DNA of 64,000 nucleotides from the human T2T-CHM13v2.0 reference genome, Homo sapiens: assembly GCF_009914755.1 (NCBI RefSeq), contig NC_060928.1; one strand, given 5' to 3'. A program made the translations under genes and the position numbers. The notes beneath the pieces are model-generated. The model was not told where the DNA came from, ran no database searches, and saw only the letters and a list, made by a program, of their open reading frames with translations. Numbering within the stretch: the first letter of the stretch is position 1; each line of letters begins with the position of its first letter. Of the stretch, positions 11,971 through 54,660 are shown in pieces.

Positions 11971-12032
11971 CTGTTAGCATTTTTGAAACTGCTTTCAATA
12001 TCTTTTGTCATAAGCACATGAGTAGAATTTTA

Positions 12033-14809
<2,777 letters not shown>

Positions 14810-15077
14810 GCACATGAGTAGAATTTTAAGGAAAATACGAGTTCATTATCTGACTATGAGGGAAGTACAGAATTAGAAGTACTGGAAGCTAGAATAGACC
14901 CTGAGCTATTAGAATTGCACTACACAATTATGGAATCCTGGTTATTGATATAGAAAGGTAAATATATAAATAGATAATAAAAATGAGTGTATGTATATAT
15001 ACATGTATAGATATGATGATATAGATAAAGCCACAAAGACAAAGATACACAATAAGAAATATACATAAAATATAAGC

Positions 15078-17156
15078 ATACATAAAAATATACACATATA
15101 TATGTTTATACATATATGACATAATATGTTTATATATTATATATAGATATATTTGTACAATATGTAGTATATTAATATATTACATATATTATATATAATA
15201 CAAACATATTCATATATATTATATATTGTATATTATATATTATATATTTATATATTATATAATTATATATTAATATTATAATATTATCTAATATTAACAT
15301 ATTATATTATAATATTATCTAATATTAACATATTATATTATAATATTATCTAATATTAACATATTATAATATTATCTAATATTAACATATTATATTATAA
15401 TATCTAATATTAACATATTGTATTATAATATTATATAATATTAATATATTGTATTATAATATATAATACATTATATTATAATATTATATAATATAATATA
15501 TTGTATTATAATATATGATATATTGTATTATAATATTATATTGTATAATATATTATATTATATTATATATTATATTATGTTATAATATTATATTATATAA
15601 TATATTATATTATATTTATGTATTAATATATTAATATGTTTATATATTATAAACATAATATATAAACATAATATATTGTAAACATAATATATGGTTTATA
15701 TATAATATATATTATATAATATATATTATATTATAATCATATATTATATATTATATAATATATATTATATTATAATCATATATTATATATAATGTAATTA
15801 TATACTATATTATAATTATAATTATAGATCATATTATTATATAATAATTATATAATTATTATATAAATATTATATATTATTATATATATTACATATATAT
15901 TATATATATTACATATATAATTATTATATAATTATATATAATAATTATATATTATATAATATTATTATATTGTATTATATAGAAATATATTATATATAAT
16001 ATAATATAAAATATTACATTATATATTATATGTTATCTTTATACTATGCACTATATAATATATATGTTATATATTACATAATATATTATATAATCTATTA
16101 TATTATCTATTATATAATCTATTATATAATAGATAATATAATAGATTATATAATATATTGTACTATATATAATAATAGATTATATAATATAATATGTATT
16201 ATATATTATGTAATCTATTATATAATATAATATGTATTATATATTATATAATCTATTATATAATGTAATATATATTACATATTATATAATATAATATATA
16301 TTATATATTATATAATCTATTATATAATATAATATATAATATAATATATAATATATATTATATAATCTATTATATAATGTAATATATATTACATATTATA
16401 TAATGGAATATATATTACATATTATATAATCTATTATATAATATAATATATATTACATAATATAATATAATATAATATATATTACATATTATATAATATA
16501 ATATATGTTACATATTATATAATATAATATATATTACATATTATAAAATATAATATATATTATATATTATATTGTATATATTAGATATTATATTATATAT
16601 TATTATTATACAATATATTATATAGTATATATAATGTTATATATTATATATATTATATAATATAATATGCATTATATATTATATAATATATTATATGATA
16701 TATATTACATATTATATAATATATTAGATATTATTATATTATATATTATTATACAATATATTACATATAATATATAATATTATATATTATATATTATATA
16801 TAATATATTATATATAATATTATATATTATATTTTATATTATATATAATATATTATATATAATATTATATTATATATAATATATTATATATAATATATAA
16901 TATATAATATAATATTATATTATATATAATATATTATATATAATATAATATTATATATAATATATTATATATAATATAATATATAATATATAATATTATA
17001 TATAATATATTATATATAATATATAATATATTATATTATATATTATATATTATATATAATATTATATAATATATTATATAATGTTATGTTTATAATATAT
17101 TACACATAATATATACATATATATGTTTATACATATATGTGTATATTTTTATGTAT
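15078..17156. repeat. ~2.1 kb AT-rich low-complexity/minisatellite array, palindromic (PATRR-like)
   Basis: Almost only A/T; 31-bp subunit (tattataatattatctaatattaacatatta) ~15274-15420; terminal IRs and central palindrome (see findings). Confidence 0.9.
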
Positions 17157-17369
17157 ATATTATTTAAATCTGCATTCCCTTAATGACTAATATGGAACAC
17201 TTTTTAAACATATATCATATATAAAAACATAAAATATATAACAAATATAAACATAAAACAAAAAAACATATATATATTTATATTTAGATACAGATATCTT
17301 ATTTTGATAAACATATGTGTGTTTCTGTGTGTATGCCTGTGAGAGAGACAGAGAGAAAAGGAGAGTAAA

Positions 17370-28520: not shown

Positions 28521-28748
28521 CCTTCATGATTTTATTTGGATGCCCAGTAAAATATTTGAAAGTGGTAGCGTGCCCCAGAGATGACTCTTAATGGAATACT
28601 TTTTAACTGTTTGGTGCTCAACAAATTTGAGTTTAACTTATGGTCATCATGATGATACTACTAATATGGCACTTCACAAAACCCTTAATATGGCACTTAC
28701 AAAAGTTATGATTATACTACTACTATATATCTAATATTATAATGTAAC

Positions 28749-29103
28749 GGCTATGGTCTAACTATGTGGGTCCCCCCAAAATTCTTAGGTCAAAATGTAA
28801 TCCTCAATGCGATAATATTGAGAAGCCAGGCCTTTAGAAGGTGATTAGGTCATGGGATGGAGCCCTCGTGAATGAGATTAGTTCCCATATAAAAGAGGTC
28901 CCAGGAAGCTTATTCCCCTTTCCACCATGAGAGAACAGAGCAAGAAGGCACCATCTGTGAAAAAGTGAGTGAACATTCATCAGAAAGAGAACCTGATGGC
29001 ACCCTCATCTTGAACTTTCTGGCCTCTAAAACTGTAAGGAAAAAATTTGTTTGTAAGCCACCCAGTTTAATGTATCTTAACGCAGCCTGAATGGACTAAG
29101 ACA
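28749..29103 (+). mobile_element. MLT1A-like MaLR solo LTR
   Basis: gctatggtctaa...ccccccaaaattc...gtgattaggtcatgg...gcagcctgaatggactaagaca. Confidence 0.85.
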
Positions 29104-29369
29104 ATATCTAATACCACGTGAGCTTACAAAAGATATTAGATCTGAACATCGTTTTTGTGATATAATAAAATAGATTTAATGATGATTACTTTGACATTTT
29201 TTTAAACCATAAAAGAGGTAACATATAGAAACACACATGTATCTAGGACATAGTGAACAAAGCAGACTCAAGTTTGCTCTCTAGATATGTGATCCTGAGG
29301 TATTTCATTACCCTTCCTATGCTTTAGACATTTTCTAAAATAGCTACGATACAGATTATTTTATTTTAA

Positions 29370-36689: not shown

Positions 36690-37150
36690 ATTTTTATACC
36701 TTGGAGTGTTGCGTAAGTATCACAAAATGGTACCTTGTGACTTAAACAAATGAACCCCTTTTTTCACAGTTTTGCACACAAGAAATCCAAGGTCAAAATG
36801 TCAACATGTTTCATTTCTTTTGAGGGCTGTGAAAGATAATATGTCGTATGTCTATCTTCTAGCTTCTGGTTTTCTGGAAATCTTTGGTGTTCCCTGGCTT
36901 ATTGATGTGTAAACCTAATCTCTGCCTCCAAGTTTACATAGTGTTCTCCCTGTATGTGTGTTTCTGTATCCAAATATCCACTTCTTCTGTAGTAGTCTTC
37001 TGTAGTATGTCAGTAGTGTTGTATTACATGCAGTATGATATAACTTCATCTTAACTAATTACATCTACATCACCTTCATTTCCAAATAAGTTCACGTTCT
37101 AAGGTTTTGTGGGTTAAGTCTTTAACATATGAATTTCAGAAGGATGTAAT
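36690..37150 (-). mobile_element. MLT1 (B/C-like) MaLR LTR
   Basis: cacagttttgcacacaagaaatccaaggtcaaaatgtc...tcttaactaattacatct...ttccaaataagttcacgttctaagg. Confidence 0.7.
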
Positions 37151-37151
37151 T

Positions 37152-37288
37152 TGTAATGGTTCATTTAGTGAGTCACCTTTACTGGGATATGGCATGACCA
37201 GATATTTGACTGTCCTTTATTTCTGGTCTATGTGAATGTTTCTGGATGAGATTAACTTTAGAATCAGTAGACTGAGTAAAGCAGATTG
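37152..37288 (+). mobile_element. MLT2 (ERVL) LTR 5' fragment
   Basis: tgtaatggttcattt...gtttctggatgagattaac...tcagtagactgagtaaagcagattg. Confidence 0.65.
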
Positions 37289-39948: not shown

Positions 39949-40139
39949 TGTAGTATTGAGAAGGTCAAAATTAGTGGTCAATATAGTAGGTTTTTTGGTT
40001 CCCAATACCATAATACAGACATTGGTGGCAAAGAGAATTGCATTTTTGTTTATTCACTTTTCATATAGGACTGATAAGCACCAAGAATTTGATATGTATA
40101 TCCGAACAATTACAAAAGAAATGTAGGTATAAATCGTGT

Positions 40140-41070
40140 TTCAAAATTCACATTTATTGAAATATTATTTATATTAGGTGTACAGTTTGATGATTTATGA
40201 TACATGTAAATGATTGTATAATCACCACTACAAATAAAATATTGAAAATTTGTATTACCCATCCCAAAGTGTCTCATTCTGCTTTCTATGTGTCTTCTAT
40301 TTCTAATTTAAATTCTTTACAAACACTAATATAATTTCTATCCCACTAATTTTTTTCCATAATGTCATATAAATTAAATTATGCAGTTAGCAACTATGTG
40401 AATTGTGTCTTTTTCTTCAGTTAGCATAATGCTTTTGAAAGCCAATCATGCTGTTGAATGCATGAGTATTTCATTTTTTTGCATTGCATAATATTTAGTG
40501 ATATGGATATACTGAAATTTCATTACCTGTTTACTCCTTGCTGGGCATTGCAGTTACTTCCAAGTTTTAGTAATTATGGATCAAGCCGTAATACACATCC
40601 AAATACAGAATTGGTGTGGACATATGGTTACCTAAATTCCTAAGTGTTAAACTTCTGGTTTTTGCTAATGTTTAAGCCAAGCCATTTAAATAATAGGTAG
40701 TGGTATTTCATTATGATGTTCTTTTATATGTCTCATGTCTCAAAAACCATATGGTACTTAGCAGCTTTCACATACTTATTTTTCATGCAATTTTGTTGGC
40801 ATTGTGTCTGTTCAAGTCCTTACCTCACTTTTATTGTTTGTGTTATTATTGAATAGTGAGGATCTTTTATATATTCTAAATACAACTCCATTATCAAATA
40901 TGAATTTAAAATAATTATTTTTTTCTAAGTCTGTGGCTTGCCTTTTCATTTTCTTACCAGTACCTTTTGATAACAAAGTTTTGATGAAGTTCACTTCTTA
41001 TCTTACATTTTTAACTTTATGATTCATGCATTTTCTGTCCCAACAATAAATCATTTCTGACCTAGGAAAT
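40140..41070 (-). mobile_element. Decayed L1M 3' fragments
   Basis: gtgtacagtttgatgattt, tatattctaaatacaactccattatcaaatatg, ttctaagtctgtggcttgccttttcattttctta. Confidence 0.65.
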
Positions 41071-42547
41071 AATGTATACTTTCCACTTTATCGATAGGTA
41101 AGTTTTTATTTCGACAGTTAAGTTTAATTTCTATAACTTCAAAATTAATTATAAAAAATTTGGTATCTTCTAATATGGTATTTCAATATATGTATTTATT
41201 TTACATTACATATCTACTAATTCCCAAATTTGACATATTTTGTACTTCTAAATAGATCATTTCTCATTTCTGCATTTGTTTTTCATTTATGATGTCTAGT
41301 CTTCTAATGCCTTCTCATTGTTCCTGCTTTATTTTGTGGCTTCTGTCACAGTTTTGCAGAACTAATATGGGAAGCCATGACCACAACCAGATTTTCTGTT
41401 ACTTAAAAGGGATACAATCCCATCTCACATCCACATTATATTCCCTTTACAATTTATGTTCAGAACGTAGATCTAGATCCAGCTTCTCTCTCTGGCTTCT
41501 ATTTGAAGGTTGAGTATTGACAAATATATGTAACTCTAGGAATATGATAGTTGATTAATCCTCTCTCCTAGTTACCTGCAGATTCACACAATGAAACTCC
41601 TGCTCCACCTCTCAAAAGCTTAAGTCCAGCCCATTGCCCCTAGCCTGACCTCCAGCTATTTCCATAGCTTCCTGGGCTTCACCCTGCCTCCTATCCAATG
41701 AAGACCAACTGAAAATCAGCTTAGATTCAGGGTGATAATATTCTGATGAAGGTACCAAGTTATCGTAAAGTATAGTTATGTGACATAAAATTAGTTTTCA
41801 TAGCCACTTTAAATTGATAGGACCCAGTTTGCCTCTCTGTAAAATTGGAATATGTCTCTGGATCTCTCCAAAATAATTTCCAGACACTTAGGTATTTTAA
41901 ATGCAGATCTGGGTCACATTTTTTTCTTTAATTTTTGGTTTGCAAATGTTTAGCACCTGATAATTGAATGATTTTACTTTTTACACATACATAACAAAAA
42001 CATATTTCCTTGTGTTATTTCCTTACTGATTTGCCAAAAAGAAGTATTATAAATCTATCTATCTATCTATCTGTCTATCTAAAATATATCATATATCATA
42101 CTTGTCTTTGAAAGATAACCACTAATATGTTTTTCTCAAATATTTAAGTTTGCTAATACTTCCATGGGGGATTCAACAGAAATTGAGACTCAAACATTAA
42201 AATATTCAGGGAAATCAAGCTGGGTGAATATACTAGTCCAGAGTGACTCCAGCTCAAAATTTTGAGGGTGGTGAACAAGAGCAATTTACTTCTCAATTTT
42301 TCTTATTCTTTGTGAAAACAATTATTTTAGCTTTTTTTCTTTTTCTTTTCCTAATCTATAAGTTTCCTCCAAAATGGACTGCAGTATTATTTAACTTGGA
42401 AAACATACTCTATTAAACAAATATTGTTGACATCATTTAGGAAAATTAGAAAATCAAAACCATTTTAATTAAACAAAAATTATGAATTAAATACATAAAA
42501 ACCTAAATTCAATAGCCAAAGAAAACTTAAAAATTGTGATACTGAAA

Positions 42548-43098
42548 TTTAAGAGGCATGTAAACCAGAGCAACTCCACTTAAATAGGGGCTGGATAAAA
42601 TAAGGGTAAGACCTGCTGGGCTGTCTTCCTAGAAGTTTAAGGCATTCTAAGTCACAGAACAAGATAGGAGGTCAGCACAAAATACACATTATAAACATCT
42701 TAATGATAAAATGGGTTGCAGGAAAGAAGCCGACCAAAACCCACCAAAACCAAGATGGCCACAAGAGTGACTTCTGGTCGTCCTCACCGCCACACTCCCA
42801 CCAGCACCATGACAATTTACAAATGCCATGGCAATGTCAGGAAGCTGCCCTATATGGTCAAAAAAGGGGAGGCATGAATGATACACCTCTTTTTAAGCAA
42901 ATAATCTATAAATAACCATAAAAATGGGCAACCAGCAGCCCCGAGGGCTACACCATAGAAAGAGACATTTTTTTCATTCCTCTTCTTTCTTAATAAACTT
43001 GCTTTCAGTTTACTTTGTGGACTCGCCCTGAATTCTTTCTTGTGCAAGATCTAAGAACCCTCTCTTGGGATCTGGATCAGGACTCCTTTTCTGTAACA
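42548..43098 (+). mobile_element. MER41 (MER41A-like) ERV1 solo LTR
   Basis: agaggcatgtaaaccagagcaactcc...aaaacccaccaaaaccaagatggc...aataaacttgctttc...aagaaccctctcttgggatctggatcag...gtaaca. Confidence 0.88.
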
Positions 43099-43899
43099 CA
43101 ACTAAGTACTGTAACTTTTGGAAATTCTAGTTGAGAACAAGCTCTGCAGGGAAATACCCAGGTGTCTTTGGACAAGTGAAGCAACCTATCACTTTTTCAC
43201 TTTTAAAAAATCTACATTCAGGAAATTGGCTCAGATGATATTTAATATGACCTGCAGAGGTCCAGCTTTCCTTAATTCTAAGTAACTCATTTTTAAACAT
43301 ATGTTAGGCTAAGTCTTTAGATCAATTAATAAGTGCTATATCAAGGTTTGTAAATTTAAAAAAACATACAGCATAATGACAAAAATAGTTATTTCAGGTT
43401 TTGTTGCCCCTCGAAATAGTTAAGCACATTACATACTTTCATACAAACTTTCTCTCATTAAACTACAGAAACCATACGTAACTTCAAGTTGAATTATCAG
43501 TATATGAAGAATAAATTTAAGTATATGACTTTAAAATGAATTTTTGATACATCTTCATTCATTCAGGCCCCTTCAAGGTTATTTAGAGGTATAAAAGCAC
43601 ATACATACCTCTCTTAGAATGATAACTAGAGGACATTCATTCGTGAAAATGAGGAAATGAGGTTGCAACAAATTTCATAAAACAGTAAGTAGATGAAGAA
43701 CAGTGATTCTAGAAAAGGCAAGGGAAGCAAAGAAAGAAAAAGCTCCAAGAGAGTGTCAGGGGAGGCTGCTGCCGTTCTGAACCTGAATATTGTGCGCTAG
43801 AAAGTTAGAAAGCCAATCTAGCACTAGAAAGCTAAAATGCCAGGCAAAAAATGTGTTATAGCATAATACTCATATTGATCTAAGAAAGTGACTAAGTCT

Positions 43900-43965
43900 C
43901 TTTCTCTCTCAAACACAGATACACACACACACACACACACACATACACACACAAACATACACACA
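43900..43965. repeat. Imperfect (CT)n/(CA)n microsatellite
   Basis: Direct reading. Confidence 0.85.
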
Positions 43966-44372
43966 TGCCTTCCTCTGCCCGCCCACAAACAAATCATTCA
44001 GAAAAAAAGAAGTGAACATTAAAATTCTAATCCCCAAATCCCAAACTTGGATGAATTAATCTACAATGGTTTTTAGAAGCCATTAAATACATAAAATAAG
44101 AGACTATTCCAGAAATGTATTTAAAGTTGAAGAAATTGATCTTAGATAAAGAACATACTTCTATTTATATTGTTATTTATGTCCAAAACTTGAGCTGAAA
44201 AATAAAGTCAAGGAAGCAGTTCAAAAAAAAACCAAAGTAAATGAACACAAGGTAAAGCGTAGATAAAGCATGGAGGATTCACTGGAGACTTAACATTTGC
44301 CTCCTAGAAGCCCCAGGACAAGAAGACAAAGAATGACTTTACAAGGATTGGAAGGACTCACCAAGTGCTAAA

Positions 44373-44375
<3 letters not shown>

Positions 44376-44407
<32 letters not shown>

Positions 44408-44415
44408 AGAGAGAG
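44376..44415. repeat. Poly(A) ~28 nt followed by (GA)n
   Basis: Direct reading; no Alu or L1 3' end immediately upstream. Confidence 0.9.
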
Positions 44416-44992
44416 AAAGACACACATATATGAAAACATCTGCAGGGCTTTTATGACACCAAAGCAAGAGAAAATGAGAAGTATAAAAATCAGCTAAAAT
44501 CTTCCAAAATGTAACATGTAGATACTAAGAAAGAAATAAGTTTGGAACCTACTACCTTTTCAACAACATAAGATATCAGAAAGAAAAATGTTACAATATT
44601 CTAAGAAAAATATGTTATTTATTGTGCATATTTCCAGAGAATGATTAATAAACTATATGAAGGCAGAATTATGACATTTTCATATATACAAGTGTTCAAA
44701 AATAAAACTTTCCCTATGCTGTTTCTTAGGATGGCATTTAAGAATTAACTCCACTATACTGAAATCATACCAGAAAAAAACACATGGTGACCTATGAATG
44801 GTGGCTCCATTCAAAAGAGTTGCACAAAGAAGTACCGGGGTACCGTGCCTCCAAATTTTAGATTATAAAAGGAAAAATAAGTAGTCAGAAAAGAAATGGA
44901 GAGAGAGGGACAATAAGAAATAAAAGTAGATTGTTTTTATTAATAATAACAATATTGTTAAAGAAAACACATTTTTTTAAAGAAATCTCAGA

Positions 44993-45190
44993 TGTCTTAG
45001 TCAGCTCAGACTGTCTCACCAAAATACCACAGACTGGGTGGACTAAATAACAGAAATTTGTTTCACACAGTTTTGGAGCCGGCAAATCCAAAATCTTGGT
45101 GGCAACATGGTCAGGTTCCAGTGAGGGTTCTCTTCTCAGCTTGCAGTCAGCCACCTCCTCACTGCATCCTCACATAGCAGAAAGAGAGAA
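44993..45190 (-). mobile_element. MLT1A LTR, 3' half
   Basis: tgtcttagtcagctcagactg...ataccacagactgggtgg...cctcacatagcag; stops mid-element. Confidence 0.85.
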
Positions 45191-45191
45191 G

Positions 45192-45815
45192 ATGCCTACA
45201 CTGAAAATGTAGAACAACTTCAAATAAACAACCCAACAATGCCTCTCCAAGGTCTAAAAAAATAAATCCCACTAAAGTCAAAATTAGTAGAAGAAATAAT
45301 AAAAATCAGAGCTGAAATAAATGAAATTGAGACTAAACATATATATAAATGATCAACAAAATGGCAAGTTGATTTTTTTAATAAATAAACAAAATTGACA
45401 AACTTTGGCCAGACTAACTGAAACAATTTGAGAAGACCAAAATAAATAAAATCAGACATGCAAAAGCAGACATTATCACTGATACCACAAAAATTCAAAG
45501 GATCATTAGAGACTATTATGAAAAACTACATGCCAATAAATTGGAAAACCTAGAAGGAATGGTAAATTCTAAGACATACAAATCAAGATTGAACCATGAA
45601 AAAGTCCAAAACTTGGATAGACCAGTAACATGTAGTTAGATAGAAGCAGTAATAAAATATCTCCCATCAAAGAAAAGCCCAGCATGGGATTATCTCCCTA
45701 TTGAATTCTATGAAGCATTTAAAGAAGAGCTATCCCCAATCTTACTTATATTATTTTTAAAAATTAATGAGGACGTAATATTTTCAAATTCACACTACAA
45801 GGCCAATATCATCTG
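45192..45815 (+). mobile_element. L1M ORF2 fragment
   Basis: atgcctacac...caaataaacaacccaacaatgc...gatcattagagactattatgaaaaactacatgccaataaattggaaaacctagaag. Confidence 0.85.
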
Positions 45816-45872
45816 ATTGATTGTTAATCTTTTTGCAGAATGGGGTAGCTCAATGGATTAAAAAATAGAGTG

Positions 45873-46191
45873 GGCTGATCTCAGTGGCTCATGCTTGTAA
45901 TCCCAGGACTTTTGGTGGCTTAGGTGGGCAGACCACTGGAGGTCAGGAGTTTGAGACCAGCCTGGCCAACATGGTGAAACCGCATCTGTACTAAAAATAC
46001 AAAAATTATCTGGGCGTGGTTGCATGCACCTGTAATCCTAGGTACTGGGGAGGTTGAGGCAGGAGAATTGCTTGAACCCCGAGAGGCAGAGGTTGCATTG
46101 AGCCGAGTTCACGCCACTGCACTCCAGCACTCCAGCCTGGGCCACAGAGTGAGACTCCATCTCAAAAAAAAAAAAAAAAAAAAAAAAAAAA
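45873..46191 (+). mobile_element. AluS with long A tail and small cactccag duplication
   Basis: gaggtcaggagtttgagaccagcctggccaacatggtgaaacc. Confidence 0.92.
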
Positions 46192-46365
46192 CAGTGAAAA
46201 ATGTGTGTGTATACACACACACACATTCCCACACACGTACGTTCTCACACATGTCCATGCACACATACAGACACAACATCCACATGTATAGAATATAACA
46301 GGTAAAACTATGTTTATATACTCTATATTCCAATGCCAAATAACTTAGATTAATATTACAAGATG

Positions 46366-46675
46366 GGCCGGGCAAGGTAGCTCAAGCCTGTAATCTCAGC
46401 ATTTTGAGAGGCTGAGGTGGGCGAATGTCCTGAGGTCAGGAGTTCAAGACCAGCCTGGCCAACATCGCAAAACCCCGGGTCTCATAAAATTAGAGAAATT
46501 AGCCAGGCATGGTGGCACATGCCTGTAGTCCCAGCCACTCAGGGAACTGAGGCACAATAATTGCTTGAACCGGGAGGCAGGGGTTGCAGTGAGCTGAGAT
46601 CATGCCACTGCACTCTGACCTGAACAATACAGCAAGACTCCGTCTTAAACAAGAACAACAAACAACAACAAAAAC
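46366..46675 (+). mobile_element. AluS
   Basis: ggccgggcaaggtagctca...cctgaggtcaggagttcaagaccagcctggccaac; (AAC)n-like tail. Confidence 0.9.
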
Positions 46676-48699
46676 TACAGAATGACTTCAGCAACTTTAA
46701 TCAATCTTTCAATCCTCACAGATTAATATATTATAGAGAGATAAAAAATAAGGCATGTTTTGTTCATCTCCTTCTTGGTTTTTATTATAGATTGACCTGC
46801 TGGAGTAAGTGAGTTGTCAAACTTGTATATTGCAAAGTTTTTGCAAAACTTATATATTGCAATATATTCACTTATGACTCTTTGTAGACATCACTTGATC
46901 ACTTGATGAATACATATTCTTAGTTGTTATGCATTTTTATTACATATTTGACTGTATCTATTTTGATTTCCTTTAAGTTAGTGATGCTTCTGGTCTTGTT
47001 TAAATGAAAAACACAATCCTCCTCTTAAAGTTATAATTATGACATTCTACATTACTTGAAGGGACAATGTGAGAAAGAGGAGAGAAGGTAATTGAAAGAC
47101 AAGCAAAGGGACCAATTTTTTTTTAAGGCTCTGCATTTCATAAATATGAAAAAATTTAAATACTCAAATAACAATAATTTATGTAGATATATTTGTATCA
47201 AACTAGTTAAAATTAAGGCCAGATTTTGTTACTAAATTTACTCCTCATCTCTTCATATTATTCCACTGGAATAACAGTAATTAAAACTAATTTGTAGCAG
47301 TTTAAAAACTCATTGAGTGTAATTTTTAGGAGGGCTGTGTCTGAAATTAGACAGATTAGTATTCTAATTTTGTCCCATTTAGTCTCCTAATCTGAAAACT
47401 CAAAAAATAAAAAGGAGTATTTCATGCATAAAGTTACAAAAATGATTCAATACTAAGTTCATTATAATAAATATATACTTTTTTCTTTGCAGAATATTTT
47501 AGTGTTGGAAGTACCTCTCCTCTACTCTTTAATTTCGTTGTGCCTTCCACTTAGGTAACACTATCTCTTTCACCAGTTAGGAATATTTAACTCAATTTGA
47601 GTACTCAAATTATCCTGGGAAAAGTTTTTTCAGTATCTCTTCTTTTGGCTTCAATGTTTCAATTTCACAAACAAATAAAAGTCCTATATTATTTTACTTG
47701 GTTTAGATTCAGTTTTCTGTCTCTCTCAAACAGGCAACCCTTAACAAATATATGCCTATAAAGCACTTAGAAAGTGCTGATACACACTAAGTATTTAGTT
47801 AATATCAGACACAATTAATATAAAAAAGCGAATTGCAGCTAAGTAATAACAAGGAGATTGGAAATCATTCTGAAGATATATTAGCTTTGCTATAAGATAT
47901 AACATCACTGAAATGCATTCATTCTTTATTAATTAACATAGTCATTTAACAAATATCACTTGAGCCACTACAAAAGTTAGGAACTCCAATAAATATTAGG
48001 ATTAAAAATATTCAGTATTCTTAAAATATATTGAGCTTAGAGAATTAACAGCTCTTCCTCTCATTGTCTGTTTATATATTTCTATATTCCTACTCATTCC
48101 TTTACAAATAGAAATAATCTCAACATAAAATCAAACATTCTAAATAACATCTGCAAGAGCTTATAGAAAAATCATAGAAGTAAGCCATTCATTTTCCAAT
48201 TTCAATAAATCAATAGTTTAATGTAAATCAAAAAGTCTGTTGTTATATAATGTACACACACAAACTCACACACATACAAATAATGCAGGAATACAAAAAA
48301 ATCAATAAGGAAACACTACATTTTTGATATGGAAATCAGTACTTTTTAAGATATCTATATGTTCATAAAATTTTATATTTTCAACATCATATAGCTGTGT
48401 CTATTTAGGCACATATTTAAATAAGAATAAATTTACTGGAAGGGAAGTGCAGCTGATATCTTCTCACATATGTGTATTAACTACCACTAAATGCTTCTAT
48501 GATCTGAATTTTCACTAGTATGCAAAGTTGTTTTGATTATATATGGTCACAATTGATGACACTCTATATTAAGCAAACACAAAACCACCACGATATTTCA
48601 CAATAAATTTTTTATGTTTATTTTTTTGCCTAGGACCTTATGCATTTGCAGTATGGTTCTTCTTATCCAGGTCAAGATTAAATGATCTCTATTTGGCTT

Positions 48700-49079
48700 A
48701 CTTAAGTAGTTTAGTGAGAAAGAGGATTGGCTGGCCTAGGAAGGTATTGGCTGGGATGGCTCAGCAGTACTACATGTAATCTCTCATTCAATGCCAGATT
48801 AGTCTGGGTGTATTTTTATTACCGGGCCAGATTACTAAATGTGAAAGAACTGAAGCACACCAGGCTTGTGGATCTTTTCAAGTTCTGAAAGAGCACAGTG
48901 TTAATTCAACTGTGTTAACACAACATTCAACTGACAATGTAAGTCACAAGTCAAACTGAGATTTAAGAAGTGGGGAAACAAACTCTATCTATTGGGATGG
49001 AAGGAGCCACATCGTCACGAAGCAATGTGCACATACTCAGGGAAGTGTAGAATGTGGGGGTATTTTTGCAATTCTACCA
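48700..49079 (-). mobile_element. Old MLT1 (J/K-like) LTR fragment
   Basis: aagtcacaagtcaaactgagatttaagaagtggggaaacaaactctatct...gtatttttgcaattctacca. Confidence 0.6.
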
Positions 49080-50006
49080 TGTCCTTTTTCTCAGTTATTG
49101 AGAACTCCAGTTACCCAGTTAAATACACAGGGGCTCATATATATGATATAATGTGGTATTGCAATAAGCTGAAATCATATTTTTCTTGGAAAATGCACTA
49201 TTTGAGAAATGCTCAAATTCTTTAATAATCCAATGTAATATTTTTAAAAATCTACAACATGTAAAAGTACTCAAACTATCTGTCCTACTAAATAAGCAGT
49301 AGAAAATTCATTTTAATTATAATTGTATTGCAGCCTGCAAACCCTGTATTTTTGTCATTAGAGTCAATAAAGCAATTTAGAAATTAATAAGCATTTGTCT
49401 GTGTGGATGTGGCTTCATGAATTTTAAACAGGATAAGAAATTGCTGTATTACATCTTTTGTCAAACAATGGTTTCCTGCTATTAGCAGTGACAAATTAAA
49501 ACTAGCTCTGTTTTTATGAATAATACACATGTAATTTCTTAGCAGTTAATATCTGAATGTTTAGTGAAATGGTTTACCATATTTTCTCAAGTGTAATTAA
49601 ATAGAAGTATCAATTAATATTTCAATTTTATTGAATGCTTGAGCAGGTATAACATGTGTCTAGCACAATAGGTCAGTAGTAATTATAGAGCTACTCACAA
49701 TAGCCTGTTTGTGACTAAACTTCAAAAATAATTTATATTATGCATATATGATAATTCATATTGTTAAAAGTAATAACGTATCCTGTTACAAATAATACAT
49801 TAAATTATAATGACTATGTAAATACTATCCTATGTTTGAGCAAGTAGGGTGTTGGGATTACACTGTCTTCCTCCTTTAGCTTGTTTCACACAAAGATCAA
49901 ATGGTAACTTACAGTCATCTGCAACTTCAAATGTGTGTTATTTCAGTTAACTTTAGCTTTCAGCAGTGTATAGAAATGAAAAGTTATACAATCTTGTTTC
50001 CTCTGA

Positions 50007-50213
50007 ACTATGGACTAAATTGTGTCCCTCTAAAATTAATATGTTCAAGCCCAAACCCCCAATGTAATGGCATTTGAGAGACAATTAGGTTTAGATGAGG
50101 CCATGAAGGTGGGGCCCACATGATCAGATTTGTGCCTTTATATGAAGAGGCATCAAATATCTAGCACTCTCTTTCTCTCTCCTTCCTGCCCGCCTCCCCA
50201 CCCCCCATCCCCT
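50007..50213 (+). mobile_element. MLT1A LTR, 5' half
   Basis: ctatggactaaattgtgtccctctaaaattaatatgttcaagcccaaacccccaatg...aggtttagatgaggccatg; stops mid-element. Confidence 0.85.
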
Positions 50214-50228
50214 TCCTCACATAGCAGA

Positions 50229-51658
50229 GAGAAGCATATCGTTTAACTTCTATGTATTTATATAGTTTTCAAAATCCTCTCATTATTAATTTATAGTTAC
50301 ATCCATTGTGACCAGAGAAGATTATTGATATTATTTCAACTTTTTAAATGTTTTAAGACTTGTTTTGTGACCTAACATATAGTCTAGTCTTGAGAATGAT
50401 CCATTTGCTGAGGGGAAGAAGGTGGATTCTGCAGCTCTTGGATGAAACGTATATATTAGATTCATTTGGTTTACTGTGCTGATTAAGTCTGATGTTTCTT
50501 TTTTGATTTTCTATCTGGAAGATATGTCCAATGCAGAAAGTGGGGTGTTGAAGTCTCCAGTTACTATTGTGTTGGAGCCTCTCTCTCTCTTTAGCTCTAA
50601 TAATACTTCCTCTATATATCTCAGTACTTCTGTGTTTGGTGTATATATGTTTAAAATTGTTGTGCCCTCTTGACACCTTTCTCTATATTTAGTGACCTTC
50701 TTTGTCTCTTCTTATAGTTTTTGCCTTGAAATCTTTTTGGTCTGATATAAGTACAGTGACTCCTGTTCTTTTTTGTTTTGCATTGTCATGGATTGTTTTC
50801 TTCATCCCTTTATTTTAGTCTATGTATATCTTTATAGGTGAAGCTTGTTTCTTGTAGGCAACAGACCAGTACGTTTTGTTTTTTCAACCATTCATCCAGT
50901 CTATGTTTTTTGATTGGAGAGTTTAGTTCATTTATATTCAATGTTATTATTGATAAGACAAGATAAGACAAGACTTACTTTTGCCATTTTCTTTGTGTTG
51001 TTCGTATTTATATCTTACTGTACTAACTGTATTTGAAAGTTGTTGTAGGTATTACTTTTTATTGGTTTAAAGTTTGGTATTTCTATTTGGGATAAGAGTA
51101 GTTTATACATCATATTTACAGTGTTACAATATTCTGTGTTTTTCTGTGTACTTACTATTACCAGTAAGTTTTGTACCTTCAAATGACTATTTATTGTTCC
51201 TTAATGTCCTTTTCTTTCTGATTGAAGTATTCCCTTTAGCATTTCTTCTAGGATGAGTCTGGTATTGCTGAATTCCTTCAGCTTTTGTTTGACTGGGCCA
51301 GTATTTATTTCTCCTTCATGTTTGAAAAAGTTTTTTTATTTCTTCAGCACTTTGATATTTCATGCCACTCTCCCCTGGCCTATAAGGTTTTCACTGAAAA
51401 GTCTGGCACCAGATATGTTGGAGCTCCATTGCATGTTATTTGTTTTTTTTCTCTTGTTGTTTTTAGGATCTCTCTTTATCCTTGACCTTTGGGAATTTGA
51501 TTATTAAATCCCTTGAGGTAGTCTTCTTTGGGTTAATTCTGCTTGGTGTTCTATAAGTTTTTTTTACTAGATATTGATATCTTTCTCTAGGTTTAGGAAG
51601 TTCTCTGTTATTATTTTTTGAATACATTTTCTACCCTTATGTTTTTCTCTACTTTCTC
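50229..51658 (-). mobile_element. L1M ORF1 end/ORF2 endonuclease fragment
   Basis: gaaagtggggtgttgaagtctccagttactattg (rc GDFNTP motif); ORF1 tttcactgaaaagtctg...cttgacctttgggaatttgat. Confidence 0.85.
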
Positions 51659-51659
51659 A

Positions 51660-54600
51660 GCACACTGTCTTATCATCAGCAGGAAGCATAATAGCCCGAA
51701 GAAATTGGCAGCCTCTTTTCAATATTAATAAGAAAAACAATTTTCAACCAGGAATATCATACCCCACCAAACTAAACTTCTTAAGCAAAGAAGGAATAAG
51801 GTCCTTCTCAGACAAGTAGACACTAAGGAAATTTATTAAAACCAGACCACCCTTACAAGAGGTACTTGGACAAGTACTAAACATGGAAACAAAAGATTGA
51901 AACCTGTTTCCTAAAAAATACACCCAAGCGCATGGCCCACAGACACAATAAAGCAACTACACAATTAATTCTACAAAACAGAGCCAACAACACAATGGCA
52001 AAAACAAAATCTTGCATATCAATACTAACCCTGAATATAAATTGTCTTAATGCTCTACTTAAAAGGCGTAATGTTGCAAGCTTGGCAAAAGACAAGACCC
52101 AACAGTCTGCTATCTTCAAGAGGTGCAACTCATATATAATCACACACACAGGCTCCATGGAAACAAATGGAGAATGGCCCCACCAGTAAAATGAAAAAAA
52201 AAAAAAAAAGAACAAGAGTCATAATTTTTGTATGAAATAAAACAGATTTTAAACCAAAAACCATCAGGAAGAACAAAGGAGTGCAATACATTATGTTAAA
52301 GATTTCAACTTGACAAGAATATTTAACTGTCTCAACTATGTGTCTAACATAAGCATACTTTGATTTATAAAACAAGCTTTTGTTGACTTGTGAAAAGACT
52401 TAGACAGACATACAATAATAGTGGGGGCTTTTAAAAACCCACTCTCGGTGTTAGACAAATCATCCAGTCAGAAAACTAATAACGGAAGTCTAGAGTAAAC
52501 TCAACACTTGACCAATTAGACATAATAGTTATCCACAGAGTACTCCAAGCAACAGTCACAGAAGATACATTTATCTCATTGGTACACAAAACATTCTAAG
52601 AGTGACCAATTGCTCAGCCATAAAGCAAGTCTCAATAAATTCAGAAAAAAAATTGTATCAACCATGTTCTCAGACCACAGTGCAATAAACATAGAAATCA
52701 AGATCAAGAAGTTCTCTCAAAACTACACAAAATATGAAAATTCAACAAGTTGCTTCTTAATAACTATTGGGTGAACAATGAAATTAAGATAGATTAAAAA
52801 GATATTTGGCATTAATAAAAGTAGAGACACCACTTACAAAAACATTGGGGATGCAGATAAAGCAATATTAAGATTAAAAAGTAGTGTTAAATGCCTTCAT
52901 CAAGAGATTAGAAAGTTAATGAACTAAAGACATAACTGGAGGAATTAGAAAAAGAAAGAAAGAAAAGGAAAGAAAGAAAGAAAAGGAAAGAAAGAAAAAA
53001 AGAAAGAAAGAGAGAGAGAGAAAGGAAAGAAGGAAGGAAGGAAGGAAGGAAGGAAGGAAGGAAGGAAGGAAGGAAGGAAGGAAAGAAGGAAATGAGATAG
53101 TATGAGAAACCATGATAGTATGAGAAACCAGCCCAAAGCTAATAGAAAAGAAGAAATAACTAAAATCAGATATTCACTGAATAAAATGGAAACCAAGAAG
53201 TCCATATAAAGATCAATGAAGCTAAGAGTTGGTTCTTCAAAGGCATAAAAAGATTGGTAAATCATTAGCTAGATTAACAAAAAAAAAGATAATATCCCAG
53301 TAGGAACAACCAGAGAAGGACAAAGATGACATTACAGCCAAGCCCACAGAAATACAAAAGATTCTCAGAGATTATTATGAACAACTCCATGCCCCAAATT
53401 AGAAAATTTAGAGGAAATGTATAAGTTCCTAGAAATACACAATATCCCAAAATTGAATCAAGAAGAAAGTGTAAACATAAACAGACCGATAATAAATTCA
53501 GAAATTGAATCAGTAATTAAAAACCTACCAACTAAAAAGAACCCTGAACTAGATGGATTCACAGCCAAATTCTAGCAGAAACACAAAGAAAAACTGATTC
53601 AACTAAAATGATTCCAAAAAATTGAGGTAGAGGGCCTGCTCCCAAACTAATTCCATGAAGTCAGCAACATCCTGATACCAAAACCTGGGAAAGACAGAAT
53701 CAAAAAAAAATATTTGGCCAATATTCCCAATGAACATAGACACAAAAAATGTGCAGTAAGGTACCAGCAAACCAAATTTAGCAGCATATCAAAAAGCGAA
53801 TTTACCATGGTCAAGGCTTTATTTCTGTGATGCAAATTTGGTTCAACATATTTAAATAAATAAATGTGTTTCACTCACGAAAACAGAACTAAAGACAAAA
53901 ACCACATGAGTATCTCAATAGATGTAGAAAAAGTCTTCAATGAAATTCAACATCCTTTTATAATAAAAACCTTCAACAGATTAGGAACTGAAGGAACATA
54001 CTTCAAAATAATGAGAGCCGTCTATGACAAACCCACAGCCAGCGTCATACTGAATAGACAAAAACTGGAATCATTCCCTTGAAAACTGGAAAAGGAAGAC
54101 AAGGATGTTCGGTCTCACCATTCCTGTTCAACATAGTATTTGAGGTCGTAGACACGGTAATCAAGCAATAAAAGATATAAAAGGCATTCAAATGGGAAAA
54201 GAAGTCAAACTATGTCTCTTTGGCAGCGATATGATTCTATAGCAAGAAAACCCCAAAGACTGCCAAAAGGCTTCTAAAACTGATAAATGAATTCAGTAAA
54301 CTTTCAGGATACAAAATCTATGTATAAAAATCAAAAGCATTTTAATACTCCAATAACATTACAGCTCAAATCCAAATCAAGAATACAATCCTATTTACAA
54401 TAGCCACAAAGAAAACAAAATACCTAGGAATTCATCTAGCCACTGAGGTGAAAGACTTCCACGAGGAGAACTATAGAACACTGCTGAAAGAAATTAGAGA
54501 TAGCACAAATATATGGGAAAAAATTCTGTGCTTATGGATTGGAAGAATCAATATTGTTAAAATGGCCATACTTCCCAAAGTAGTTTACAGATTCAATAAT

Positions 54601-54660
54601 ATTCCTATCAAAATACCAATGTCATTTTTCACACAACTGGAAAAATCTATTCTATATAAA
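51660..54660 (+). mobile_element. L1P (old) ORF1 end to ORF2 RT, truncated at both ends
   Basis: ORF 53864..54082 ([23 protein letters not shown]) and 54448..54708 ([15 protein letters not shown]) are ORF2 RT; no 3'UTR. Confidence 0.88.
52948..53092. repeat. Polypurine (GAAA)n(GA)n(GAAG)n compound microsatellite in L1 ORF2
   Basis: ~145 nt of A/G only, ~13 perfect GAAG units. Confidence 0.95.

What the first reader, a model, noticed from the sequence alone, without database searches (positions are those of the whole stretch)
44988..50234. Cryptic ~5 kb inversion that splits both an MLT1A LTR and an L1
Seen: the 3' half of an MLT1A (minus, 44993-45190) abuts a + strand L1 ORF2 piece (45192-45815). 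Five kb away, the 5' half of an MLT1A (plus, 50007-50213) abuts a minus L1 ORF2 piece (from 50229). Reverse-complementing ~45191-50213 rebuilds one complete MLT1A. Its putative 5-bp TSD is tcaga (44988-44992) and tctga (50002-50006, = rc tcaga), with a slightly damaged LTR terminus. It also makes the two L1 pieces collinear, missing only ~130 nt (compare the same ORF2 interval at ~52758-52889). Inference: a post-insertion genomic inversion that may be lineage-specific or polymorphic. Repeat annotation would hide it as four unrelated fragments.
Basis: partly seen in the sequence, partly recalled or inferred. Interest (0 to 1): 0.8.

Follow-up and report, generated by a model that had tools for sequence, protein, structure and literature searches.

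The report
Small fixed inversion splitting two repeats
About 5 kb of human chromosome 4 was flipped long after an ancient LTR and an ancient L1 had landed there, cutting each in two; the inversion is real, but it is an ordinary small evolutionary inversion in a gene desert.

Summary
44993-45191 and 50007-50214 are the two complementary halves of one MaLR-type solo LTR, in opposite orientation, flanked by a 5-bp target-site duplication (TCAGA and its reverse complement). 45192-45815 (+) is L1 ORF2 residues 303-515. 50230-~51660 (-) is ORF2 residue 257 back into ORF1 of the same L1; about 135 nt are missing between them. Re-inverting 45192-50214 makes both elements collinear. In other copies in the same genome the LTR halves lie adjacent in 31 of 36 loci, and the L1 pieces lie in order on one strand in 12 of 13.

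A 20-nt direct copy (50215-50234) of the LTR edge left of breakpoint 1 sits at breakpoint 2, bounded by 2-5-nt microhomologies. No inverted repeats flank the breakpoints.

I read this as one non-homologous, microhomology-mediated repair event that produced an inversion, a 135-nt deletion and a templated insertion.

The copy is identical to its source apart from a 4-nt gap and shares a private base of this LTR. The inversion is therefore much younger than the repeats.

It is absent from a T2T-based inversion callset of 44 human genomes and from a 2005 human-chimpanzee list. It is probably fixed and older than the human-chimpanzee split. No primate orthologues could be examined.

The parts
44988..44992 (.). 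Left copy of the 5-bp target-site duplication (TCAGA)
   Evidence: Reverse complement of 50002-50006. It directly abuts the LTR terminus as aligned to 18 relatives.
44993..45191 (-). One half of a MaLR-type solo LTR: terminus ...GACTAAGACA back to the CT-rich centre. By the recalled Repbase convention this is the 3' half on the minus strand.
   Evidence: 41 scored genomic matches at 72-79% identity apart from the window itself. It aligns to the second half of 18 intact copies.
45168..45191 (+). LTR edge at breakpoint 1 (t), the source of the templated copy
   Evidence: (family D4).
45192..50214 (.). Inverted segment, 5,023 bp (5,025 if the ambiguous CC at 50215-16 is counted)
   Evidence: Re-inversion makes both the LTR and the L1 collinear.
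45192..45815 (+). L1 piece a: ORF2 residues 303-515. It is 3'-truncated, with no poly(A).
   Evidence: Alignments to human ORF2p structures. It is 74-76% identical to 39 other genomic L1 copies over nearly its whole length. No L1 sequence follows it.
45816..50001 (.). Interior. It was originally the flank of the LTR. It holds two Alus (about 45872-46192 and 46364-46675) and otherwise single-copy DNA.
   Evidence: Self-BLAST finds only Alu and simple-repeat matches. There are no Pfam domains in the six frames. 46700-50000 matches only itself in the genome, apart from one 72-bp hit.
50002..50006 (.). Right copy of the target-site duplication (TCTGA, the reverse complement of TCAGA)
50007..50214 (+). 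Other half of the same LTR: damaged terminus (A)ACTATGGACTAAAT... to the CT-rich centre
   Evidence: 40 scored genomic matches, mostly 70-80% identical, with two short partial ones at 86-89%. It aligns to the first half of 18 intact copies.
50215..50234 (+). 20-nt direct copy (t') of 45168-45191, lacking 4 nt (AAAG). It is a templated insertion at breakpoint 2. Its last 5 nt (AGAAG) are also L1-homologous.
   Evidence: L1 homology in relatives runs to window 50230. It shares a private base of this LTR that 16 of 18 relatives lack.
50230..51660 (-). L1 piece b: ORF2 residue 257 back through the endonuclease domain and inter-ORF region into the ORF1 RNA-binding domain. The right-hand end is approximate.
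   Evidence: ORF2p alignment. Pfam Exo_endo_phos and Transposase_22 hits. Reading of 51440-51900.

Best explanation
An old MaLR-type solo LTR and, about 4.2 kb away, an old 3'-truncated L1 fragment lay on the same strand. Much later, one rearrangement broke the DNA at two places. One break fell in the CT-rich centre of the LTR, between 45191 and 45192. The other fell in L1 ORF2, between residues 257 and 303. The 5.02-kb piece between the breaks was rejoined in reverse.

The joins were made without homology. At the left junction the LTR edge meets L1 residue 303 with at most 3 nt (AAG) of microhomology. At the right junction about 135 nt of L1 were lost and 20 nt were added.

I infer the following for the added 20 nt. 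The 3' end of the flipped LTR half paired through (T)CC with the other broken LTR end and copied it up to the break. The result is a direct copy ending at the same LTR base as breakpoint 1. It then paired through AGAAG with the L1 end. This is the signature of microhomology-mediated (polymerase-theta-type) end joining with a templated insertion.

Shown: the inversion, the deletion, the copy and the microhomologies. Inferred: the enzyme pathway, the order of steps and the date.

The event is much younger than the two repeats. It is probably fixed in humans and probably predates the human-chimpanzee split. It has no evident function, since no gene or annotated element lies in the window.
For: LTR halves. 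They are complementary and adjacent in 31 of 36 other genomic copies and abut in an alignment with 18 copies. The 5-bp TSD is present.

L1 pieces. They are collinear in ORF2p coordinates, 257 and 303. In 12 of 13 relatives they lie in order on one strand, and in 10 of those 12 they are 135-164 nt apart. Both pieces are equally similar to the same 13 relatives, at medians of 74.8% and 75.1%. The neighbouring L1c is at 66.9-68.3%.

Breakpoints. No inverted repeats lie at them; the nearest inverted pair is 15 nt and sits about 300 nt outside either breakpoint.

Junction copy. It is a direct 20-nt copy whose 14-mer core occurs twice in 64 kb against 0.01 expected. It carries a base private to this LTR copy, which 16 of 18 relatives lack. 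L1 homology in relatives runs into its last 5 nt, and relatives read ...AAG just before the point where L1 piece a starts.

Dating. There are 0 mismatches in 20 aligned nt. Under lineage divergences that I recalled, the probability of this is 0.79 at 6.5 My, 0.28 at 28 My, 0.10 at 43 My, 0.008 at 70 My and 0.002 at the age of the LTR.

Polymorphism and species difference. The ten chr4 rows of Table S1 in Porubsky 2023 (44 genome columns, T2T coordinates, calls down to 2,966 bp) lie at 4.0 to 192.2 Mb, and none is at 67.31 Mb (supplement table read). Feuk 2005 Table S1 has no entry starting at chr4:63-64 Mb, and at 65 Mb only four entries at 65.13-65.14 Mb, of 41 bp, 189 bp, 414 bp and 4.7 Mb (supplement searched).

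Precedent. Locally templated insertions with microhomology, and inversions with an adjacent deletion, are described as classes of human variants in Sudmant 2015 (PMC4617611, passages read).
Against: No orthologous sequence from any other species or human haplotype could be examined. The uninverted allele is therefore inferred, not seen.

The L1 lacks its 3' 2.7 kb and poly(A). A plain L1 insertion does not explain this, so a separate earlier loss must be assumed.

The copy differs from its source by a 4-nt gap. This is either slippage during copying or a later change.

The dating rests on 20 nt and on recalled divergence values.

My conversion of T2T to hg17/hg38 coordinates is approximate (offset taken), so the negative look-ups are soft. 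The 2005 chimpanzee draft was incomplete.

The LTR's 5' terminus does not read TG, so the TSD register depends on accepting a damaged terminus.

End joining cannot be told apart from replicative template switching using the sequence alone.
Confidence: 0.78

Rival explanations
1. The same inversion arose by replication-based template switching (FoSTeS/MMBIR) rather than by two double-strand breaks. A nascent strand copied up to the LTR edge and switched to the opposite strand at L1 residue 303. It then ran back through the interior to the LTR centre, switched briefly to copy 20 nt of the LTR edge, and switched again to L1 residue 257.
For: Every junction shows short microhomology. There is a short locally templated insert, and about 135 nt are lost. 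Template switching is the explanation offered for such complex sites in Sudmant 2015 (passages read).
Against: It needs three switches where end joining needs two breaks and one copying step. The copy ends at the same LTR base as breakpoint 1, within the 5-nt microhomology. Run-off copying on a broken end predicts this; a free template switch does not require it.
Confidence: 0.15
2. There was no L1 here before the event. Two double-strand breaks were patched with cDNA from a single L1 RNA, by endonuclease-independent, twin-priming-like synthesis. One DNA end primed at ORF2 residue 515 and ran to residue 303. Another primed at residue 257 and ran into ORF1. The inversion and both L1 pieces would then have arisen together.
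For: The L1 is 3'-truncated with no poly(A) and no recognisable L1 TSD. I recall this as typical of endonuclease-independent L1 insertion. Microhomology AGAAG lies where piece b starts. The two pieces are nearly adjacent in L1 coordinates, as in twin priming.
Against: The L1 pieces are about 25% diverged from their best relatives, so they are old. The 20-nt junction copy shows 0 mismatches to its source, with probability about 0.002-0.008 at such an age. The copy also carries a substitution that this LTR acquired after insertion. The junctions are therefore much younger than the L1.
Confidence: 0.04
3. The arrangement is an assembly error, or a rare variant private to the sequenced genome.
For: None positive. 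Only one assembly could be read.
Against: The junctions carry a biological repair scar: a deletion, a templated copy and microhomology. The interior is single-copy DNA with no flanking inverted repeats that could mislead an assembler. A private inversion in the reference would show as inverted in all 44 genomes mapped to it, and no such row exists at 67.31 Mb.
Confidence: 0.02
4. The four fragments are unrelated: two independent LTR fragments and two independent L1 fragments that happen to be complementary.
For: LTR and L1 fragments are very common in this region.
Against: Four coincidences would be needed together. The LTR coordinates would have to abut. The 5-bp flanks would have to match. 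The L1 coordinates would have to be collinear and 135 nt apart. A 20-nt copy of one junction would have to sit at the other.
Confidence: 0.01

Closest known systems
Non-homologous (end-joining or template-switch) inversions with breakpoint deletions and locally templated insertions, as catalogued among human structural variants (Sudmant et al. 2015, PMC4617611; passages read)
   Same: There are two breakpoints without flanking homology, a loss of sequence at one junction, a short insert templated from nearby sequence, and microhomology at the template boundaries.
   Different: This one appears fixed rather than segregating. It was recognised from split repeats in a single genome, not from a comparison of genomes.
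L1 twin priming (5'-inverted L1 insertions; Ostertag and Kazazian 2001, recalled and not read here)
   Same: Two pieces of one L1 lie in opposite orientation, and their inner coordinates are close (residues 257 and 303).
   Different: In twin priming the two pieces are contiguous and share one pair of TSDs and a poly(A). Here 4.2 kb of single-copy host DNA and half of an LTR are inverted with one piece, there is no poly(A), and the junction scar is far younger than the L1. A textbook twin-primed L1 sits elsewhere in the window (12254-14809) for contrast.
Inversions by non-allelic homologous recombination between inverted repeats (segmental duplications, or inverted L1/Alu pairs)
   Same: The outcome is a flipped segment bounded by repeat sequence.
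   Different: The breakpoints lie in two unrelated repeats, an LTR and an L1. No inverted homology lies at or near them. Sequence was also lost and added, which recombination does not do.
Evolutionary microinversions used as rare genomic changes in mammalian phylogeny (Chaisson et al. 2006, recalled; not in the searched library)
   Same: It is a kilobase-scale, neutral, fixed inversion in non-coding DNA.
   Different: None in kind. This locus is simply not listed in the sources I could search.

Membership tests
MaLR-type (MLT1-like) solo LTR | Full-length homology to a dispersed multi-copy LTR family, with the two window pieces covering complementary parts | tested here: met
   1401 and 763 first-look candidates in the genome. 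Both halves are adjacent in 31 of 36 fetched copies. They abut in an alignment of 18 copies.
MaLR-type (MLT1-like) solo LTR | 5-bp target-site duplication flanking the element | tested here: met
   TCAGA at 44988-92 and its reverse complement at 50002-06. That ERVL/MaLR elements make 5-bp duplications is recalled.
MaLR-type (MLT1-like) solo LTR | TG...CA termini | tested here: inconclusive
   One terminus reads ...GACA, as in relatives. The other reads AACTATGG where most relatives read TGCTATGG, so it is a damaged terminus.
MaLR-type (MLT1-like) solo LTR | Assignment to subfamily MLT1A | not testable with these tools
No Repbase/Dfam library or RepeatMasker is available here.
LINE-1 ORF2 fragment (both pieces) | Significant similarity to L1 ORF2 protein, in collinear coordinates | tested here: met
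   E 3e-35 for residues 364-515. E about 1e-26 for residues 53-257. Residues 303-354 score only E 0.2-0.4 on their own. Pfam Exo_endo_phos and ORF1 domain hits.
Simple two-breakpoint inversion by non-homologous repair | Re-inversion restores both interrupted elements; no inverted homology at the breakpoints | tested here: met
   restoration; no inverted repeats at the breakpoints.
Simple two-breakpoint inversion by non-homologous repair | An uninverted ancestral allele exists in an outgroup | not testable with these tools
   No primate genomes are held; the genome tool reports that the window's assembly has no relatives here.
L1 twin-priming insertion | The two L1 pieces are contiguous, end in poly(A), and are flanked by one pair of TSDs | tested here: not met
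   About 4.4 kb of non-L1 DNA lies between the pieces. There is no poly(A) and no L1 3' part.
NAHR-mediated inversion | Inverted homologous repeats at both breakpoints | tested here: not met
   Seven inverted pairs were found in 44700-50700, and none lies at the breakpoints.
Known polymorphic human inversion | Listed in an inversion callset at this position | tested here: not met
   It is not among the 10 chr4 rows of Table S1 of PMC10150506. There is no chr4 entry at 67.31-67.32 Mb in the held, truncated part of the HGSVC3 tables. Other callsets could not be read.

The most novel reading that the evidence does not exclude
Both L1 pieces were not a pre-existing element. They were cDNA patches laid down from one L1 RNA at the two junctions of the inversion, by an endonuclease-independent, twin-priming-like repair of two distant breaks. 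This would make the locus a germline, fixed example of an L1-bridged inversion. The 3'-truncated, poly(A)-less L1 and the microhomology at its start fit that reading. The far younger look of the 20-nt junction copy argues against it.
Probability: 0.04. Interest if true: 0.6.

Novelty: new member of a known kind. Interest (0 to 1): 0.22.

Why it matters
The finding has little functional weight. The window has no annotated gene or functional element, and the flipped DNA is single-copy filler plus two Alus.

Its value is methodological and phylogenetic. First, complementary repeat halves with a shared target-site duplication can expose a fixed inversion from one genome alone, where repeat annotation would list four unrelated fragments. 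Second, the breakpoint scar records both the repair pathway and a rough relative date. Third, once the primate orthologues are aligned, the event should be a clean, homoplasy-free marker for one branch of the primate tree.

Tried and rejected
1. Looking for a reference LTR inside the window. Only two distant relatives turned up (28640-29115, 36690-37165). This was replaced by copies from the whole genome.

2. Using the L1 at 12019-17172 as a coordinate guide. It proved to be a composite: a twin-primed L1 plus an AT-rich repeat. My provisional idea of a second inversion at 53850-53880 was therefore wrong. L1c runs on in the same sense to 54654.

3. Searching for the missing 3' 2.7 kb of the L1.
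   - There are no Pfam domains in 45816-50006 or 40000-44992.
   - There is no similarity between the interior and the downstream parts of four intact relatives, except one 255-nt match at 54.5% that I regard as noise.
   - There is no partner elsewhere in the window.
   - A resemblance I thought I saw between 45840-45870 and the L1 ORF2 C-terminus was not supported.

4. Explaining the 20-nt copy by a staggered cut and fill-in. I rejected this on paper, because that mechanism gives inverted copies and the copies here are direct.

5. Testing whether L1b and L1c are the two arms of one old twin-primed element. I rejected this because L1c is clearly more distant from the shared relatives (arms 57-59% identical, shuffled control 46%).

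6. Looking for a paralogous, uninverted copy of the locus. There is none.

7. Literature look-ups.
   - The ape T2T paper curated only inversions over 10 kb, and its tables are too large to read.
   - The macaque tables are too large to read.
   - The nearest entry in the gibbon tables is a 40-kb heterozygous inversion at hg38 chr4:64,036,925-64,076,729, which is not this event.
   - Two searches for microinversion papers gave nothing specific to this locus.

Full report
**What is in the sequence**

On the left, an LTR-like stretch begins TGTCTTAGTC at 44993 and runs to 45191. It is followed at once by sequence that translates as L1 ORF2. On the right, a stretch begins ACTATGGACTAAAT at 50007 and runs into a C/T-rich tract ending about 50214. 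Then come 20 nt that repeat the left LTR edge, and then antisense L1.

**The LTR halves**

The window itself holds only two distant relatives of this LTR. The window's own whole assembly turned out to be searchable, so I used that instead.

- The left piece gave 1401 first-look candidates. The 40 scored besides the window itself were 72-79% identical.
- The right piece gave 763 candidates. The 39 scored besides itself were mostly 70-80% identical, with two short partial matches at 86-89%.
- I fetched 36 other copies: 7 found with the left piece and 29 with the right.
- In 31 of them both pieces match on one strand, next to each other, in the order right piece (as on the window + strand) then reverse complement of the left piece. 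In the other 5 only one half was detected.
- In 29 of the 31 the two matches are less than 100 nt apart.
- A MAFFT alignment of 18 of these copies with the two window pieces as separate rows shows the right piece covering the family from its first terminus to a variable CT-rich centre. The left piece picks up at the end of that centre and runs to the other terminus (...GACTAAGACA). There is no overlap and no missing block.
- Several relatives (L011, L017, L025, L028) have CT-rich centres as long as the one here.
- The flanks are TCAGA (44988-92) and TCTGA (50002-06), which are reverse complements. This is the 5-bp duplication expected of this class (recalled).
- One terminus is damaged: AACTATGG where most relatives read TGCTATGG.

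The two pieces are therefore one solo LTR that was cut in its centre. The name MLT1A and the strand labels follow a convention that I recall but cannot check here.

**The L1 pieces**

I translated with X at stops.

- 45361-45816 aligns to human ORF2p residues 364-515 at E 3e-35.
- 45191-45349 aligns to residues 303-354, but only at E 0.2-0.4 on its own. It is collinear with the strong match.
- rc(50226-51500) aligns to residues 53-257 at about 1e-26.
- Pfam adds the endonuclease domain and part of the ORF1 RNA-binding domain further right on the minus strand.
- Residues 258-302, or 135 nt, are therefore absent.

I took 13 other L1 copies from the genome, the best matches to the plus-strand piece at 74-76% identity.

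- 12 of them carry both pieces on one strand in order. 10 of those 12 have 135-164 nt between the matches. The other two have partial matches 554 and 872 nt apart.
- Both pieces are equally close to these 13 relatives, at medians of 74.8% and 75.1%. The relatives were chosen with only one of the pieces.
- The neighbouring L1c, at 51685-54654 on the plus strand, is more distant (66.9-68.3%) and is a different element.

**The inversion**

Reverse-complementing 45192-50214 (5,023 bp) puts the LTR halves together and the L1 pieces in line.

- The interior is what one expects of the LTR's old flank. It holds two Alus and otherwise single-copy DNA.
- No inverted repeats lie at the breakpoints, so homologous recombination is excluded.
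- No paralogue of the locus exists.

- The 24 nt left of breakpoint 1 (45168-45191) recur as a 20-nt direct copy at 50215-50234, between the flipped LTR half and the L1. The copy is identical except for a missing AAAG.
- The 14-mer core occurs exactly twice in the window, both on the + strand, against 0.01 expected.
- A staggered cut with fill-in would give inverted copies, so it does not explain direct ones.
- The copy starts where the flipped LTR end (…CTTCC) and the sequence before the source (…CATCC) share (T)CC.
- It ends at the same LTR base as breakpoint 1, within a 5-nt AGAAG that is also L1-homologous. In relatives, L1 homology runs to window 50230.
- At the left junction, relatives read …AAG just before the first L1 base retained, matching the LTR edge …GAAG.

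My inference is that one repair event, primed by microhomology, copied the other broken end up to its tip and then joined the L1 end. Replicative template switching would give the same product and remains a serious rival. Both mechanisms are established sources of complex human variants (Sudmant 2015, passages read).

**Date**

- The copy carries a base that 16 of 18 relatives lack and that its source shares. It was therefore copied from this LTR after the LTR had begun to decay.
- It has 0 mismatches in 20 aligned nt.
- With recalled human-lineage divergences, that outcome has these probabilities:

| Age | Probability of 0 mismatches in 20 nt |
|---|---|
| 6.5 My | 0.79 |
| 15 My | 0.51 |
| 28 My | 0.28 |
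| 43 My | 0.10 |
| 70 My | 0.008 |
| LTR's own age | 0.002 |

The inversion is therefore far younger than the LTR and the L1, most likely within anthropoid primates. This also argues against the idea that the L1 pieces were made during the event.

**Polymorphic or fixed?**

- Table S1 of Porubsky 2023 (PMC10150506) gives inversion genotypes of 44 genomes in T2T coordinates, with calls as small as 2,966 bp. Its ten chr4 rows lie at 4.0, 33.1, 49.2, 49.6, 72.3, 72.7, 91.3, 160.3, 191.3 and 192.2 Mb. None is at 67.31 Mb.
- The held part of the HGSVC3 tables has no chr4 entry there, but that file was cut when stored and may not hold the inversion list.
- Feuk 2005's human-chimpanzee list has no entry starting at chr4:63-64 Mb. 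At 65 Mb it has only four entries, at 65.13-65.14 Mb, none about 5 kb long. My coordinate conversion is approximate and the chimpanzee draft was incomplete.
- The ape T2T paper curated only inversions over 10 kb.

The arrangement is therefore probably fixed in humans and shared with chimpanzee, but this is not shown.

**What stays unexplained**

- The L1 stops at ORF2 residue 515 with no poly(A), and its last 2.7 kb are nowhere in the window. I assume an earlier, separate loss.
- Its 5' end abuts the 5' end of L1c within about 30 nt.

**Verdict**

The event is an ordinary kind: a small, neutral, non-homologous inversion. Its breakpoint scar is unusually legible.

Noticed in passing
window 12254-14809: A younger L1 shows the textbook twin-priming layout on the minus strand. 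14349-14809 is the inverted 5' piece, sense on the + strand, covering about ORF2 residues 420-580. 14353-12254 is the sense piece that continues about 11 nt further on in L1 coordinates. It makes a useful contrast with the finding.
   Followed up: partly
window 15000-17172: About 2.2 kb of AT-rich low-complexity repeat directly follows that L1. Its translation is almost all Y/I/L/N.
   Followed up: no
window 51685-54654: L1c is a more diverged plus-strand L1 running from the ORF1 C-terminal domain to about ORF2 residue 875. It lies head-to-head with the minus-strand L1 piece, and the two 5' ends meet within about 30 nt at 51660-51690. ORF2 is interrupted at about 52930-53050 by a GGAA/GAAA microsatellite.
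   Followed up: partly
window 28640-29115 (-) and about 36690-37165 (+): Two further, more distant MaLR-type LTRs. The first is full length, with TGTCTTAGTC... and ...CCATAGC termini.
   Followed up: partly
window 45872-46192 and 46364-46675: Two Alus lie in the same orientation about 170 nt apart inside the inverted segment, 71% identical to each other. A CA-rich tract sits between them.
   Followed up: no
window 48544-48572 and 50286-50314: A 29-nt inverted match, 83% complementary, between the interior and the minus-strand L1 piece. It is probably chance.
   Followed up: no
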